A DNA stretch of 27,246 bases from Escherichia coli. Its GTDB lineage: Bacteria; Pseudomonadota; Gammaproteobacteria; Enterobacterales; Enterobacteriaceae. Position 1 is the first letter of the stretch; each line of letters opens with the position of its first letter. Location of the stretch: assembly GCF_003334255.1 (NCBI RefSeq), contig NZ_QOWU01000062.1. One strand, given 5' to 3'. Of the stretch, positions 12,001 through 18,000 are shown one piece after another. A program made the position numbers.

Positions 12001-15000
12001 CTGACTCCAGAAGATCAGGGATCCACGGATACAGATATTTCAGTGCGTTCTCCATCCGGCTGATACTGGATGCGTCCACAGGCAATCCCTGCTCAGTCAA
12101 AAGAGATGACAGTTCACGCATCGACACACTTTTGCTTAATTGCTCTTCATAAATCATCCGTGCTTTATGGATTCCCTGAGCCTTTTCAATAAACGTCAGT
12201 TCGCCCCTGACTTCATTCTCAGCCAGATGGCCAATGACACACTGAAGCCGCCCCGGCCACGGTTTGAAAAGCACATGAATACGGTAGAAACGCTGCTCGC
12301 CGGTCTCCTCCCACAGTTCTCTCAGGATCTGATAACGAGTGTTACCACCATCGCTGAAGATGTAGATATCCGGCTCACTCTCCGGTATCCGGGTGACCTT
12401 TGGCACCGTATCCAGTCCGCGGGAGAAAATTGAACTTTTAATATCGTCGTACCGGGGATTGCGCGTGGTTCTCGGGTTATCAGGATTAGGGCGCAACTGA
12501 TCCAGCGTCAGAACCATGGGCGTTTCCCCCAGGGCAACCACGTTACCGGTCTTACTGGTCTGGCGCCCCGGTTGCATGATGGCGGCCCCCAGATCAAGGG
12601 AATGATTTCGCTTAATTGACATACGCATTGCCTCCGGAACGGTCAAAATTCCAGCCACGTTCAAACGGTGAAAACAGGGTGTAACGACCATCGAAGCTCA
12701 CCCGTATCGTACCGGTCGGTCCCTGTCGCTGTTTGCTCACAATGATTTCCGCCACGCCCTTATCCAGAGTGCCGGGGTTGTAAACCTCGTCACGGTAAAT
12801 AAACATAATGAGGTCAGCATCCTGCTCCAGCGCCCCGGAATCACGCAGGTCACCGTTGTTTGGTCGTTTATCTGCCCGCTGTTCCACCTGTCGGTTAAGC
12901 TGCGACAGTGCGAGCACAGGGCATCCAAGTTCTTTCCCCAGCGACTTGAGGGCTCGGGATATTTCCGCAATCTCCTGAGTGCGGTTTTCCTGGTCCGGTG
13001 AACGAATCAACTGGAGATAATCGACCATTATCAGGGAAGGTCTGCCATACAGACGCACATAACGACGGGCACTGGCGCGCAGTGATGACGGAGTCTGAGA
13101 TGACGTGTCATCAATGATCAGGCGGTTACCTTCACCGGCAAATGTCCCCTCCTGCATGAACTCACCCATTGTTGCCGTAAGTCTCGCCCACTCCTCATCG
13201 TCCATCATGCTGCTGCGAAGACGAGTCAGCTCCACCCGGGACAGCATCGACAGGGTACGCAGAATCAGCTGCTCCCTGGACATTTCTATGCTGAACAGGA
13301 ATACCGTTTCATCGGTCCGCTCACGCAGGGCATTAAGACACAGAGTGAGTCCAAGGGCCGTTTTCCCCATCGACGGACGTGCTGCCAGAAGGATAAGATC
13401 CCCGGGCTGCAGGCCACAGGTCATCTCATCCAGTTCATCAAACCCCGTTGGGGTGCCCGTCATCCCGCCCGCCCTCAGTCCTTCTTCCAGCTGACGCAGG
13501 GCCAGCTCCATTGCGGAGGAAAGGCTCACTTCACTGCGCTCATGCAGCATGCCTGTCTGGGAAAGAGAAAAAAGTCGCCGTTCCGCGGATTCAAGAACTG
13601 CGCGCGGAGTGGCATCCGGCGATGCAACATCAGCAACCAGAGAATTACCGGTTTCCTGAAGCTGCCGCAGCATACTCTTTTCCGCCACAATACGGACATA
13701 AGCCATGATATTGGCTGCTGAAGGTGTATTCTTACTGAGCTCAGCCAGGTAAGCGAAGCCGCCCAGTGCCTCAATATTGTGCGTTTTCTCAATATGCTCA
13801 CTCAGCGTGATGAGGTCGAACGGCTGACCGCTGACTGCCAGCTCTGACATAGAGCGGAATATCACCCGGTGCACAGCCAGAGAAAAATCCTCCCCCCTGA
13901 GCATCAGCACCACTTCATCCCAGCGATCATTATCAAGCATCAGGCCGCCAAGCACAGCCTGTTCAGCATCAACGGAGCGCGGAATATAGCGTTCAGCCAT
14001 GGTGTATCCTCCCTCTCTGACTGCCGGAAACCCGGCTATGTGAAAAAAGGAAAAAGGGTGCCGGACGAACAGTTGCAGGGCATAAAATGCCCATAACTGC
14101 CTGTACGTTTTCAGACCGGTGAGTTTGCCGACCCCGGTCTGAAGGTACGGACAGCATCTTTATATTCATAACACTTTGACTTAATAAGGAAAAAATATGA
14201 ATACAAGTTATCAACAACTGCCGTCCGGCATTGGTTCTGAAGTGAAATACACCCTGCAGTTCTGGCTGCTGAGTAACGGAAAGGTCATGACGGAAAAAGA
14301 CGGGCTCTGTAACCCCTTTCCCCTGAACTGTATTGAATCGGCTCATCCTTTTACTCCGTTTCAGCAGAATCAGTGGGTTGAACTGGACACTGTCGGGCCG
14401 AATGGACCGGTGAAAGCGACATTCCTTGTGCACAGCGTTCTGTATAAACTGAAACGTCAGGGTGGCTCCCTGAATGATGCCGGCCGGCCTGAATACGGCC
14501 GGTGCATTGCTCACTGGCACACTGACGTGTTTGTTGAGAAAAAAGCGCTGCCTGACTGGCTGAGAGCATTCCACACTGACGTTTCGCACTCGTAAAAACA
14601 CGTTCAGCCCGACGGGTCATATTTTCCAGCCACCCGTCGGGGAAAATGTCAGCACCATCACGGGGAAACAAAATCGCTTTCCATTCAGGGTATGAGCGCG
14701 GAATACCTCCGGAAGCATTCCGGCTCAGACAGCGACTCACAGTGCAGGCAGCACGGAATGCATATGTTGCGATGCTCTCATCATATGTTGCGATGTTCTC
14801 ATTATTGCCTTTCTGCCGTTCCACCCGCTCTTCAGCATCAAATGCCAGTGCAGCAAGGCTTGCCCAGCACATGCAGTTCACTGAATTCCCCGGAACGCTC
14901 TGCAGCTCCCGGCGCACCATGTTGACCTCAGCACTGAAAAAAGCGTTCTCATCGCCTTCAAGGGCAGCCAGATGCAGCGGAAGCCAGACCTGACTGAACC

Positions 15001-18000
15001 ATTCGCACATCCGTTCCCGGTTACTGACGGTCATCACTGTCTCCGGGCGGGAACCGTCCTGAAAAACATGTCCGGTGCGTGGAGAACTGTATGAAACATA
15101 ACCACCGTGCACCGCAATGACCGGACGACCTGACGCCGGAAGCCCCACACGACACCCACTGGCAATCCGGGTCATCAGCAGGTTCAGTTCAGCCAGTAAT
15201 TCAGGGCGGGTTAAGACCGCCGGAACCGGAGAATATTTCACTGAGGAAGACATACTTTCACCTCCATATCTCTCAGCCCGCCAGGTGCGTCACTTCCCCG
15301 CAGAGAACCGGAAACCTGGCTATATGAAAAAAGGGAAAAGGGTGCCGGACGAACAGTTGTCGGGAATAAAATCCCGGTAACTGTCTGTACGTTTTCAGAC
15401 CGGTAAGTTTGGCGACCCTGGTCAGAAGGTACGGATAGCATCTTTATATTCATAACAAATTGAATTAAAAAGGAAAAAGATAAATACAAAGCATCAACAA
15501 CTGCCGTCCGGCATTGATAACAACCATGATGAGGATGGCAACATGGCAAAATATTATGAAAACTGGAAATTGTTCTCGCTTAACCTGAATCACTGACGAA
15601 TTCCTCCGTTTTCCAGCAACCCGTCAAACGCCGGTTTCCACTCAGGAAAGAGTTCACAGGTCAAGCTGTGCATCGTGACAAGCGCAGAATCACTGCGACG
15701 TGTGGATTCTTTTTCGAGACGATGAACGGGCTGACCAGCCGCATGTCCCTGCTTGTAAATATTCAGGTCGTAAATCTGTGTGGAAAGAAGGGAAACGGCA
15801 CCTTCAGGTAACTGTCTGCTGTAACGACCGGTCTGAATAATTCCGGCCAGCTCATCCAGCGTCTTCCTGGCCAGCGCGGTATAGTCCATGCAGTTAACCA
15901 GCGTGCGTACTTTAGGCAGGGGTATCCCAAGTTCACGGTAGGGCAGCAGGTTCTCCATGACGTTGACAGTACCGCGAATAAATTCACGAACATCGGGAAG
16001 AACCGGATTGACCATCCCGACAACCGACTCAGTCGCCGACAGCACTATCATCTCCAGCATGACGGAGCGCGCCCCCTGAGAATCAACGACAATGACATCG
16101 TAGTTATTCAGGAAAAGTGGATGTTGCAGAACATTCCGGAGGCGAAGACGCCCGTCCGGGGCATGAAGCATCGCTGTTTTTAACTGTTCATGAGGATCAT
16201 TGGAGACAATCAGATCAAGGCCATCGATAGCCGTGCGGGAAATGATATTATCGGGATGGCTGAGGTCAGCCGTACGCATAAGAAGCTCAAAAAGACCGGC
16301 TGGAGCTTCATATGTCAGCGGAAAGATATTACTGGCTGTGGGTTGAGCATGATCTCCGTCAATCAGCAGGGTACGTATACCTGCATCGGCCAGAAAACCA
16401 GCAAGATTTGCGGATTGTGTTGATTTACCTTCACCACCTTTTGTTGAAACAACGGGAAGTATTTTCATATCTGCGCCCCCATCGACTGTTTTTTTGCGAT
16501 CGGATGCACATGAAAGACTTCAACGACAACTTGACATACCCGTAACTATATGAATTTTATGACAATGGGATTGAAAATCCCCGTGTCCTTGGTTCGATTC
16601 CGAGTCCGGCACCACTAATTCTTAAGAACCCGCCCACAAGGCGGGTTTTTGCTTTTGGATCTGACAATAACCTTCACGAAAAAAATTAGCTTATAAAGTC
16701 TGGGGGAATTACTCTCGCCACGTTAACGAGAGTAATTTTATTGATATTAATCTCCTGATACTTTACCCCCGTCCAAACTCCAGCCGCTGCACATTCACCA
16801 TCCCAGGCTTCTCAGCAGCACTGACATCAATTTGTGTCACCCGCAGCGCATATTTTTCATCCAGTGCGTTTAACCATTTCAGCAGGTCATTAAACACCAC
16901 AGGTTCTATCCAGACCTGAATATTCTCCCCACGATCGGCTATCCGCCTGATGACCACCGAGTGCGCGGAAGCACTGTCACTGATGACCCGCGATACCTGC
17001 GCAGGCGTTGTTGTGGCAGATTTTCGCGCTGCAATAATATCCGGCGCGGCGTTCTTCAGTCGGGTGTTCATCGCCACCAGCTGCTGCAATATTGTCTCCT
17101 GTTGCTCAATCCGTTCGCTCAACGGCTGCCAGATGAGGACGTAATATCCGACGCTAAACAGGAACACCACCGCTGCCAGTAACATGCCCTTTTCACGCGG
17201 AGAACGCCCCGCCAGGTGTTGTGCCAGCCAGTGTTCGCCACGGCTTAACTGGCGTTCACGCCATTGCTGAAAATAGTGAATAAATTTATCGCGTAACATG
17301 TTATTTCCTCCGCAACGTTACGCCGCCGGAAACCGCATCACCCTCTTTCTGTAACGCGTCCTGTTGCACAACATAATCGGTTGCCAGTGCACTACGCAGT
17401 TTGTCGAAACTGGCAAAGTTCGCGGCCCGTAGCTGGAGGTGAAGTATCTGGCGTTTTTGATCAAAGGTAAAACCACGCATTTCGATGTCGGAAAGTGACG
17501 CTGATTTCAGGGTGCTGGCTATCGCTGACAACTCGGCGAGCAGCCGGGTATCGTCGGCCTGTGGGCGATATTTTTTCAGCGCCATCGTCACCTGAGAGCG
17601 TAAATTCACAATCCGCTTCTGCTCCGGGAACAACGTTAAGAACTGTTCCTCCGCCTGGGTGCGGCTTTGCGCCACCTGTTCGCTGACGCTCCATAACGTC
17701 ACGCCCCGCTCCACTGCCAGCGCAACCAGAATCAGCAATATCGGCAGAATCATCACCCGCCAGCGCGCCCACTGTTTTCGGTAGCTGACGCGAGGCTGCC
17801 ACGGCCCTGTCAGCAGGTTCCCTTCCGGTTCGCCATAAGTGGTAATGGCGGGCAGAGCTGTAACGGTCAGGCGTTCAGCGTCTGCGCCAGCCCATGCTGA
17901 TAGCTTTTCCGGTGCAATGCCGACTACGGTTAGCGAAAGCGGTAAATCCTGCTCATTGAGCTGGGCGCGGAACATGACCGGAGCCAGCGCCAGCCCGGCG

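What the first reader, a model, noticed from the sequence alone, without database searches (positions are those of the whole stretch)
14024..15516. Duplicated ~210-bp structured module with compensatory hairpin changes; one copy drives an intact 132-aa gene, the other a decayed remnant
Seen: 14024-14234 and 15308-15516 are the same module in the same (plus) orientation, opposite to all neighbouring genes. In copy A the first hairpin pairs gggcat with atgccc; in copy B the same positions pair cggga with tcccg. The sequence differs but pairing is preserved, which points to selection on structure (RNA or single-stranded DNA) rather than on a protein-binding sequence. Copy A ends at the RBS and ATG of the 132-aa ORF. 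In copy B the ATG is ATA and homology stops after ~13 codons, abutting the parA stop. Inference: a structured leader or promoter cassette duplicated between parA and dnaB. One speculative possibility is a single-strand promoter of the kind found in plasmid leading regions, which would make the 132-aa protein an early-expressed establishment or anti-defence candidate; a structured 5' UTR or small RNA is a plainer alternative.
Basis: partly seen in the sequence, partly recalled or inferred. Interest (0 to 1): 0.65.

Follow-up and report, generated by a model that had tools for sequence, protein, structure and literature searches.

The report
Structured repeat heading reverse-oriented ICE genes
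A conserved, strongly folding element of about 180 bases, present twice here, sits at the start of small backward-facing genes wedged into the parA-dnaB operon of an E. coli integrative conjugative element; it is real and undescribed, and its folding is selected on the strand opposite those genes' mRNA, which points to antisense-RNA or single-stranded-DNA control rather than an ordinary 5' leader.

Summary
Window 14009-14233 and 15293-15516 are two copies (86-88% identical) of one module, on the plus strand between minus-strand dnaB-PI, a 300-aa ORF and parA of an SPI-7-type ICE. The module has four helices: closing stem P1 with extension P1b, and hairpins H1, H2 and H3. H3 holds the Shine-Dalgarno sequence in its loop and the ATG in its stem. 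The 3' arm of P1 is codons 7-12 of the plus ORF.

Across 46 distinct copies (E. coli, Proteus, Providencia, Edwardsiella, Serratia, Citrobacter, metagenomes), pairing is kept by compensatory changes. Mispairs are mostly A.C on the plus strand, which are G.U/G.T wobbles on the minus strand (29 versus 10 pair positions, p=0.003). The selected fold is therefore on the minus strand.

The 132-aa ORF is a real gene that PGAP did not annotate (dN/dS 0.24). Copy B heads the remnant of a different gene family. Most related islands have parA next to dnaB and no module, so this is an inserted accessory cassette.

The module is not in Rfam, has no homology to Frpo/ssi, and has no recognisable sigma-70 promoter. 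My best reading is a cis-antisense, excludon-like structured RNA (confidence 0.4). A single-stranded-DNA promoter or priming element is not excluded (0.22).

The parts
14023..14236 (-). Module copy A. It comprises the flank hairpin GCCGGAAACCCGGC (14023-36), an A-rich tract (14040-58; U-rich on the minus strand), and the four-helix core (14059-14230).
   Evidence: Repeat. Folding. CM hit of 130 bits at 14055-14172. The strand is assigned from the wobble bias.
14059..14075 (-). Copy A: P1 5' arm TGCCGGACG (14059-67) and P1b 5' arm CAGTTG (14070-75), in plus-strand coordinates.
   Evidence: They pair with 14222-30 and 14215-20. Compensatory changes in other lineages: GCCAGGCA/TGCCTGGC in Edwardsiella, GTCGGACG/CGTCCGAC in the Proteus type, and CAGTCG/CGACTG in L108.
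14078..14092 (-). Copy A hairpin H1 (GGGCAT-AAA-ATGCCC).
   Evidence: At least five different hairpin alleles occur at this place across lineages.
14097..14154 (-). Copy A hairpin H2: two stacked stems, a nearly invariant loop GTTTGSCGAC, and two positions that are non-Watson-Crick in almost every lineage (14102/14149 and 14113/14140).
   Evidence: Compensatory changes include GTAC/GTAC to GCAC/GTGC and GACCGG/CCGGTC to GATCGA/TCGATC.
14163..14203 (-). Copy A hairpin H3. The 5' arm is 14163-70 and the 3' arm is 14196-14203, which contains the ATG at 14197-99. The Shine-Dalgarno sequence AAGGA (14186-90) lies in the loop.
   Evidence: Mispairs here are A.C only on the plus strand (7 positions against 0 G.T). 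The pair at 14164/14202 changes A-T to G-C, with a synonymous AAT to AAC codon change.
14215..14230 (-). Copy A: P1b 3' arm CAACTG (14215-20) and P1 3' arm CGTCCGGCA (14222-30). These are codons 7-12 of the plus ORF.
   Evidence: The encoded peptide changes (QLPSGI to KLLPGE) while the pairing is kept.
14197..14595 (+). 132-aa 'type 1' ORF. It is a real gene that PGAP does not annotate. Function unknown.
   Evidence: Homologues P0013-P0019. 58% identity to the 119-aa L101 protein in the same genomic context. dN/dS 0.24. No hit in Pfam, NCBIfam, PHROGs or PADLOC. The AF2 model is low-confidence (pLDDT 59).
15308..15516 (-). Module copy B. Core: P1 arms 15343-51 and 15505-13, H1 15361-76, H2 15381-15438. 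The fold is slightly decayed.
   Evidence: CM hit of 140 bits at 15339-15456.
15480..15596 (+). Remnant of a 'type 2' gene. The start codon is ATA. Codons 1-30 (INTKHQQLPSGIDNNHDEDGNMAKYYENWK) match intact 142-158-aa genes in other islands. A deletion of about 325 nt follows.
   Evidence: L004 158 aa; L003 split into 30 + 114 aa. (hits H5-H12 carry about 325 nt more)..
14351..15253 (-). 300-aa ORF (PGAP: hypothetical protein WP_000099346.1). Only about the first 216 aa are conserved. The C-terminal tail overlaps the 132-aa ORF by 245 nt.
   Evidence: The L045 homologue is 216 aa and sits between parA and dnaB with no module.
12612..14000 (-). dnaB-PI (SPI-7-type island replicative helicase), immediately downstream of copy A on the minus strand.
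15590..16468 (-). parA, the terminal gene of the island and the first gene of the minus-strand operon.

Best explanation
The module encodes a four-helix structured RNA of about 180 nt, read from the minus strand as part of the parA to dnaB-PI operon transcript. That transcript has to cross the module, because only 54-80 nt separate the module from the dnaB start codon.

This RNA is exactly antisense to the Shine-Dalgarno sequence, start codon and first 12 codons of a small accessory gene that was inserted backwards into the operon. The arrangement works like an excludon or a plasmid-type cis-antisense control region. When the ICE maintenance operon is transcribed, its folded antisense segment pairs with the mirror-image leader of the plus mRNA through the loops of H1-H3 and blocks its translation or triggers its decay. 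The plus leader itself already buries the AUG in H3 and codons 7-12 in P1. The fold may also stabilise or process the operon mRNA ahead of dnaB.

The two copies here arose by duplication of the cassette. Copy A heads an intact 132-aa gene and copy B heads a deleted gene of another family.

Shown: the repeat, its conservation, the covariation, the strand bias, the coding status of the ORFs, and the fact that this is an insertion. Inferred: the transcripts and the antisense mechanism.
For: 1. The structure is real and under selection. Folding z-scores are -6 to -7. On the 20-sequence alignment, 14 of 48 pairs carry double-sided changes against 6.2 +/- 1.5 in shuffles (0 of 500 shuffles reach this), and slid controls give 1-6. 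RNAalifold finds P1 and H2 independently.

2. The selected strand is the minus strand. With RNA parameters the minus strand is more stable in 34 of 40 copies (mean 6.3 kcal/mol) and in all 8 later divergent copies. In 46 copies, A.C on the plus strand (G.U on the minus) occurs at 29 pair positions and G.T at 10 (p=0.003). In P1, P1b and H3, the helices that contain the plus gene's start region, the count is 17 vs 2. In the 'f4' allele of H3, a compensated G-C pair is flanked by two C.A mispairs on the plus strand that are G.U on the minus strand.

3. The minus strand is the sense strand of every neighbouring gene. In most related islands parA abuts dnaB, so a read-through transcript is the default expectation.

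4. The Shine-Dalgarno sequence and ATG sit inside the fold in every lineage, although the H3 loop sequence varies. This is the usual geometry of antisense control of a translation start.

5. No sigma-70-like promoter and no simple terminator interrupts the region on either strand.

6. The module is kept, with intact pairing, in islands where the plus ORF is truncated (L074, L075).

7. On the minus strand, a U/C-rich tract after P1 can pair with the dnaB Shine-Dalgarno region.
Against: - No transcript data exist for either strand.
- The strand bias fits minus-strand DNA as well as minus-strand RNA.
- A read-through antisense transcript would be complementary to the plus mRNA whether or not it folds, so the need for an elaborate conserved fold is not explained.
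- The nearly invariant H2 loop and the two conserved mispairs suggest recognition by a protein, which this model does not name.
- The promoter of the plus genes is unidentified.
- The pairing between the U-rich tract and the dnaB Shine-Dalgarno region has no covariation support and is absent in the Proteus-type copy.
- The strand test counts pair positions, not phylogenetically independent events.
Confidence: 0.4

Rival explanations
1. Single-stranded-DNA element on the minus strand. When that strand is single-stranded (as the transferred strand in a recipient, or as the displaced strand during rolling-circle replication of the excised ICE), the module folds and serves as a promoter for the plus ORFs, as a primer-RNA start site, or both. 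It would work like Frpo/ssi or an sso, so that the backward-facing genes are the only ones expressed before the complementary strand is made.
For: - The better-folding strand is the template strand of the plus ORFs, as this model requires.
- One to three homologous copies occur per island, all in one orientation, each directly ahead of a gene. This resembles the three Frpo repeats of ColIb-P9 (sequences).
- The plus ORFs face against every neighbour and have a good Shine-Dalgarno sequence but no recognisable double-stranded-DNA promoter.
- Conserved mispairs sit inside H2.
- The DNA fold is strong (-27 to -47 kcal/mol).
- The cassette lies within 1-3 kb of the island end.
Against: [quoted passage not shown]
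- Known Frpo elements are 330-nt unbranched hairpins of about -100 kcal/mol carrying -35/-10 hexamers. The module is a branched fold of about 180 nt whose longest arm is about 23 nt, too short to hold both hexamers. No conserved hexamers were found (and by eye).
- With DNA parameters the two strands fold about equally well (mean difference 0.7 kcal/mol).
- All core ICE genes, including the transfer genes, are minus-sense. In F-like systems that would make the plus strand the transferred strand.
- The oriT and the transferred strand of this ICE family are not known to me.
Confidence: 0.22
2. Structured 5' leader of the plus-strand mRNA. A promoter upstream of P1 yields an mRNA whose AUG (in H3) and codons 7-12 (in P1) are sequestered, so that translation is locked until the fold is opened.
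For: - The plus strand also folds well (RNA z -6.2; 89-90% of cells paired).
- The AUG lies in a stem and the Shine-Dalgarno sequence in a loop in every lineage.
- The H2 lower stem carries more G.U on the plus strand than on the minus.
Against: - In exactly the helices that would lock translation (P1, P1b, H3), mispairs are A.C on the plus strand at 17 positions against 2 with G.U.
- The plus strand is less stable than the minus in 34 of 40 copies.
- No promoter was found upstream of P1.
- The module persists where the ORF is truncated.
Confidence: 0.15
3. A double-stranded-DNA feature: inverted repeats that bind a protein (an operator, a centromere-like site for the island's ParB, or a cruciform), or a recombination hot spot at which gene bodies are exchanged.
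For: - The H2 loop is nearly invariant and H2 is a long imperfect palindrome.
- The location lies between parA and parB/dnaB.
- Unrelated coding bodies are joined to the same first 12 codons, and module segments are mosaic between islands.
Against: - Half-sites of a protein-binding palindrome are conserved in sequence and do not covary. Here at least five different H1 hairpins and many compensatory pairs keep complementarity while the sequence changes.
- A strand bias in wobble pairs is not expected for duplex DNA.
- No attC-like RYYYAAC/GTTRRRY cores were seen (by eye).
- Most related islands, which have the same ParA/ParB, lack the module.
Confidence: 0.08

Closest known systems
Excludon / long cis-antisense arrangement (Listeria; from my own knowledge of Sesto et al. 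2013, not checked here), and plasmid antisense control of a translation start (FinP/traJ, CopA/CopT, IS10 RNA-OUT/RNA-IN)
   Same: A gene faces against an operon whose transcript must overlap it. The antisense segment is highly structured and covers the Shine-Dalgarno sequence, the AUG and the first codons. The sense leader is the mirror-image fold.
   Different: No transcripts are mapped. The fold is a four-helix junction of about 180 nt, much larger than the 1-2 hairpins of FinP, CopA or RNA-OUT. No dedicated antisense promoter or terminator was found. The element is repeated 1-3 times with different downstream genes.
Frpo/ssi single-stranded-DNA promoters of plasmid leading regions (Masai & Arai 1997; Samuel et al. 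2024, PMC11541004)
   Same: Homologous structured repeats in one orientation, each ahead of a gene on a conjugative element. The folding strand is the template strand of those genes. There are mispairs inside the stems.
   Different: No sequence homology. About 180 nt and branched, against about 330 nt and unbranched. DNA folding energy of -30 to -47 kcal/mol, against about -100. No -35/-10/UP elements. The Shine-Dalgarno sequence, ATG and 12 codons lie inside the fold. The element is on an ICE whose transferred strand is unknown. The genes face against all their neighbours rather than with them.
STAXI motif (Rfam RF01728)
   Same: A structured motif of unknown function in the same ICE family and the same window (2251-2402), near DNA-handling genes.
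   Different: A different sequence and fold (the Rfam scan finds no match in the module). STAXI lies in the same sense as its neighbouring genes and does not overlap a start codon.
Integron attC sites
   Same: A strand-specific folded element with conserved extra-helical or mispaired positions, found at the boundaries of exchangeable gene bodies.
   Different: It lies at the 5' end of the ORF and includes the ORF's start. No R''/R' core sequences and no IntI integrase are present. This comparison is by eye only.

Membership tests
Frpo/ssi single-stranded-DNA promoters | Sequence homology to known Frpo/ssi (criterion of Samuel et al. 2024: BLAST E<=1e-6) | tested here: not met
   blastn gives only 11-20-nt chance matches (E>=0.03). 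nhmmer with the module profile finds nothing at E<=10 against ColIb Frpo1-3 and F ssiD/ssiE. No hit in 72,556 plasmids in distant mode.
Frpo/ssi single-stranded-DNA promoters | A long, essentially unbranched hairpin of about 300 nt that mimics duplex DNA | tested here: not met
   The module is a closing stem with three hairpins, about 180 nt, -30 to -47 kcal/mol as DNA. Frpo1-3 and ssiD fold as single long hairpins of -94 to -102 kcal/mol.
Frpo/ssi single-stranded-DNA promoters | -35 and -10 hexamers (and a UP element) reconstituted in the stem | tested here: not met
   The consensus scan finds no site on either strand in 13900-15700. By eye, no hexamer pair is conserved across the H3 alleles, and the longest arm (about 23 nt) cannot hold both hexamers.
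Frpo/ssi single-stranded-DNA promoters | The folded strand is the template strand of the downstream gene | tested here: met
   Wobble bias of 29 vs 10 pair positions in favour of the minus strand (p=0.003). The minus strand is more stable in 34 of 40 copies with RNA parameters; with DNA parameters the two strands are about equal.
Frpo/ssi single-stranded-DNA promoters | Lies in the leading region on the transferred strand, with transcription that depends on single-stranded DNA | not testable with these tools
   The oriT, nic site and transferred strand of SPI-7-type ICEs were not found in the window or in the papers searched. All core genes are minus-sense.
Cis-antisense / excludon-type control | An oppositely oriented gene is overlapped by the transcription unit of its neighbours | tested here: inconclusive
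   The geometry fits. The plus ORFs sit between parA and dnaB, which are contiguous in most relatives. Only 54-80 nt lie between the module and the dnaB ATG, and no promoter or terminator was detected there. No transcript data are available.
Cis-antisense / excludon-type control | The antisense strand carries a selected structure covering the target's Shine-Dalgarno sequence and AUG | tested here: met
   Covariation. Minus-strand bias, strongest in P1, P1b and H3. The Shine-Dalgarno sequence and AUG lie inside H3 in all lineages.
Any described RNA family (Rfam 15) | A match to a curated covariance model | tested here: not met
   At the gathering threshold the only hit in the window is STAXI, elsewhere. 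With permissive E<=10 on 13900-15700 there are only two chance-level hits, both outside the module.
Intrinsic terminator | A compact G+C-rich hairpin followed directly by a U run | tested here: not met
   The scan finds none inside the module. On the minus strand, P1 is followed by CCC and then U5..U6, but P1 encloses about 150 nt. The Proteus-type copy lacks the U run.

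The most novel reading that the evidence does not exclude
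The module is a new, branched, non-Frpo type of single-stranded-DNA promoter or priming signal on the transferred (or displaced) strand of an integrative conjugative element. It folds only while that strand is single-stranded, and it switches on the few backward-facing genes (the 132-aa protein and the 'type 2' family) before any other ICE gene can be read. That would make these proteins first-wave establishment or anti-defence factors.
Probability: 0.2. Interest if true: 0.8.

Novelty: new member of a known kind. Interest (0 to 1): 0.5.

Why it matters
SPI-7/PAPI-1-type ICEs spread virulence and fitness islands among Enterobacterales, yet their regulation is poorly known. This work contributes four things.

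- An undescribed structured element with covariation support and a clear strand assignment. It is a candidate for an Rfam-type family.
- Two unannotated or mis-annotated small gene families that the element heads. One of them is hidden in RefSeq by an over-extended ORF on the opposite strand.
- A concrete, testable case of either antisense (excludon-like) wiring inside an ICE maintenance operon, or a non-Frpo single-stranded-DNA promoter outside plasmids.
- A ready experimental design. Strand-selective wobble mutants can tell the models apart.

Tried and rejected
- **Rfam.** At gathering and at permissive thresholds there is nothing in the module.
- **Plasmid and phage collections.** No homologue in near or distant mode.
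- **Search for the module next to dnaB-PI in 50 loci from other genera.** nhmmer and a covariance model found it only in Proteus, Providencia, Edwardsiella and Citrobacter braakii. tblastn then showed why: parA abuts dnaB in most of the others.
- **Scan for unusually stable folds upstream of dnaB in other genera.** One run timed out. The cheaper version, raw MFE against a locus background, did not flag even a known module, so it is uninformative.
- **Codon-position test on close E. coli variants, to decide between the overlapping 132-aa and 300-aa ORFs.** There was too little variation to decide. The question was settled by the diverged homologue (dN/dS 0.24) and by the 216-aa homologue of the 300-aa protein.
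- **Protein function.** Pfam, NCBIfam, PHROGs and PADLOC gave nothing above threshold. The type-2 AF2 model (pLDDT 70, all-helical) matches nothing in the PDB and only uncharacterised proteins in AFDB50. The type-1 model is too poor to search.
- **Promoter hunting.** The scan and inspection by eye of each H3 allele found no conserved hexamers on either strand. A possible extended -10 (TGTTATGAAT) on the minus strand occurs only in some alleles, so I rejected it.
- **Local alternative pairing.** CAGTT (14070-74) could pair with AACTG (14095-99). This has some covariation support (L005, L076), but it competes with P1b and the base of H2, so I leave it as a possible alternative conformation.
- **Literature.** No paper was found on this intergenic region, the STY452x genes, or the oriT of this ICE family. 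The search for STAXI returned only unrelated psychology papers.

Full report
**What is in the sequence.** The window around 12.6-16.5 kb is the terminal part of an SPI-7-type integrative conjugative element (ICE). Positions 13900-15700 are 100% identical to E. coli 2015C-3121. There, PGAP annotates dnaB-PI (window 12612-14000, minus), a 300-aa hypothetical protein (14351-15253, minus) and ParA (15590-16468, minus). To the right of parA the window continues into chromosomal yghD/gspL, as it does in other strains carrying the island at that site.

The reported repeat is real. 14009-14194 matches 15293-15478 at 86% and 14186-14233 matches 15469-15516 at 85%, with a spacing of 1283-1284 nt. BLAST gives 88% over 210 nt. 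The two H1 hairpins, the ATG-to-ATA change and the end of A/B homology after codon 13 are all as described.

**Anatomy.** Copy A folds far better than shuffled sequence on either strand (DNA z -7.2 and -6.5; RNA z -6.2). Copy B is weaker (z -2.9). The fold has these parts:
- A closing stem P1 (14059-67 with 14222-30), extended by P1b (14070-75 with 14215-20).
- Hairpin H1 (14078-92).
- Hairpin H2 (14097-14154): two stacked stems, a nearly invariant loop GTTTGSCGAC, and two positions that are mispaired in almost all lineages.
- Hairpin H3 (14163-70 with 14196-14203).

The loop of H3 holds the Shine-Dalgarno sequence, and its 3' arm holds the ATG of the 132-aa ORF. The 3' arms of P1b and P1 are codons 7-12 of that ORF. 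The module therefore does not end at the ATG; it includes the first 12-13 codons.

**Distribution and context.** The module occurs in 139 of 5,426 complete E. coli genomes. There are 220 places, all chromosomal, up to 6 per genome, at 73-100% identity. It has no match in plasmid or phage collections and none in Rfam.

In every case examined it lies between dnaB-PI and parA, in the orientation opposite to both, with 1-3 copies per island. Each copy carries a Shine-Dalgarno sequence, an ATG and the codons MNTxxQ(Q)LPSGI, but the gene bodies behind them differ:
- 'Type 1' is the 132-aa protein of copy A.
- 'Type 2' is a 136-158-aa helical protein (motif RLQWLGDWL). It is found in Proteus and Providencia (identical copies, which looks like ICEPm1 by species distribution; that identification is my inference), in Serratia, Edwardsiella, Citrobacter and in metagenomes.

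Copy B of the window heads a remnant of a type-2 gene. Its first 30 codons match the intact 158-aa gene of L004, and then about 325 nt are missing relative to strains such as S19-651.

Most related islands in other genera (Kluyvera, Pantoea, Photorhabdus, Yersinia, Hafnia, Cedecea and others) have parA ending less than 100 nt before dnaB, with no module. The module plus its ORF is therefore an accessory cassette inserted backwards into the parA-dnaB operon of one sub-lineage, and later duplicated.

**The 132-aa ORF is a gene.** PGAP does not call it, because the 300-aa minus-strand ORF overlaps it by 245 nt. Three results settle the matter:
- A 119-aa homologue at 58% identity sits in the same place in another E. 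coli island that has no 300-aa ORF.
- dN/dS between the two is 0.24.
- The only distant homologue of the 300-aa protein is 216 aa long and aligns to residues 1-232.

The overlapping tail of the 300-aa ORF is therefore an unconserved extension. Neither plus-strand protein family has any Pfam, NCBIfam, PHROG or PADLOC match, nor an informative structural match. In both AF2 models the module-encoded N-terminus is disordered.

**Selection on structure.**
- On a 20-sequence alignment with a hand-drawn structure, 89% of cells pair. Fourteen of 48 pairs show changes on both sides, against 6.2 +/- 1.5 in shuffles (0 of 500 reach the observed value) and 1-6 in slid controls.
- RNAalifold recovers P1 and H2 on its own, with 9 compensated pairs.
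- Examples in P1: GCCGGACG/CGTCCGGC becomes GCCAGGCA/TGCCTGGC in Edwardsiella. This changes the peptide from QLPSGI to KLLPGE, so the pairing is conserved and the protein is not. It becomes GTCGGACG/CGTCCGAC in the Proteus type.
- Example in P1b: CAGTTG/CAACTG becomes CAGTCG/CGACTG (L108) and CCACTG/CAGTGG (L085).
- Examples in H2: GTAC/GTAC becomes GCAC/GTGC, and GACCGG/CCGGTC becomes GATCGA/TCGATC.
- H1 exists in at least five different hairpin versions.

Module segments are mosaic between copies and islands. The A/B difference in H1 is therefore an exchange of alleles rather than a fresh compensation.

**Which strand.** This is the main new result.
- With RNA parameters the minus strand is more stable than the plus strand in 34 of 40 copies (mean 6.3 kcal/mol) and in all eight later, more divergent copies.
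- In 46 distinct copies, pair positions that show A.C on the plus strand (G.U or G.T on the minus) number 29. Positions that show G.T on the plus strand number 10 (binomial p=0.003).
- In P1, P1b and H3 the count is 17 against 2.
- Most G.T cells on the plus strand come from one position that is mispaired in nearly all lineages.

The selected fold is therefore that of the minus strand. That strand is the sense strand of parA and dnaB, and the template strand of the plus ORFs.

Two caveats apply. Positions are not phylogenetically independent events. With DNA parameters the two strands score about equally, so the test does not separate minus-strand RNA from minus-strand DNA.

**Mechanism.** The plain '5' UTR of the plus mRNA' reading is disfavoured by the strand test. 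Two readings remain.

(a) Minus-strand RNA. The parA-dnaB operon transcript has to cross the module, because 54-80 nt is too little room for a separate dnaB promoter and none was detected. The fold is exactly antisense to the plus gene's translation start. This is an excludon-like or plasmid-type antisense arrangement, and I take it as most likely (0.4). It also fits two further observations: the module is retained where the plus ORF is truncated, and a U/C-rich tract after P1 can pair with the dnaB Shine-Dalgarno region (weak evidence, with no covariation).

It gains from the strand result, from the repeated co-oriented copies, and from the absence of any ordinary promoter for genes that clearly have good ribosome-binding sites. 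Against it: the module is not homologous to Frpo/ssi, is branched and half their size, and shows no -35/-10 hexamers. In addition, all core and transfer genes are minus-sense, and the transferred strand is unknown. I give it 0.22.

A plus-strand leader (0.15) and a duplex-DNA protein site or recombination spot (0.08) are less likely.

**Novelty and verdict.** The element is undescribed: there is no Rfam family, no annotation in RefSeq, and no paper in the searches I ran. It is a sound candidate for a new structured family, confined to a sub-lineage of enterobacterial SPI-7-type ICEs. It heads two unannotated or mis-annotated small gene families of unknown function.

I file it as a new member of a known kind (a structured cis-antisense or leader element). 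The minority possibility is a new variant of single-stranded-DNA promoter on an ICE. Interest is moderate (0.5).

Noticed in passing
window 2251-2402 (-): A full-length STAXI RNA motif (Rfam RF01728, 134 bits, E 4e-29) lies between topB and the STY4534-family gene and ssb. It is a second structured element of unknown function in the same island.
   Followed up: no
window 14351-14595 (overlap of the 300-aa minus ORF with the 132-aa plus ORF): The RefSeq/PGAP call of the 300-aa protein (WP_000099346.1) appears over-extended by about 84 aa at its C-terminus and hides the real 132-aa gene on the other strand. The only distant homologue is 216 aa (L045).
   Followed up: yes
window 14622-14638 vs 15609-15625: A 17-mer inside the 300-aa ORF is 94% identical to the 3' end of parA (DGWLEN vs DGLLEN). 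This suggests that the duplicated unit carried a fragment of the parA 3' end, and that the 300-aa ORF lost a stop codon near 14603.
   Followed up: partly
window 14761-14802: A 21-nt tandem duplication (CATATGTTGCGATGCTCTCAT x2, 95%) lies inside the 300-aa ORF and gives a repeated heptapeptide.
   Followed up: no
window ~16470-16760 and 16763-19453: The island ends just right of parA, and the next genes are chromosomal yghD/gspL/gspK. No tRNA is detected in 16400-16900. The best-matching strain (2015C-3121) instead has an integrase-TraI-UvrD element at this junction, so the window comes from a different strain.
   Followed up: partly
window 5653-6045 (+): Another plus-strand ORF (130 aa) faces against its minus-strand neighbours, between the PFL_4669-family and STY4528-family genes. 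No copy of the module precedes it. A similarly placed reverse gene is annotated in strain S19-651 (L106 14119-14604).
   Followed up: no
window 14007-14058, minus strand: In the minus-sense RNA fold, the U/C-rich tract following P1 pairs with the dnaB-PI Shine-Dalgarno region around the small hairpin at 14023-36. It may be an anti-Shine-Dalgarno element. There is no covariation support, and it is absent in the Proteus-type copy.
   Followed up: partly
L072, L077 (E. coli RM11911, KE41): Some islands carry three module copies alternating with minus-strand ORFs. In L072 a 165-nt in-frame deletion shortens the type-1 ORF (to 76 aa) and the opposite 300-aa ORF (to 245 aa) at the same time.
   Followed up: partly
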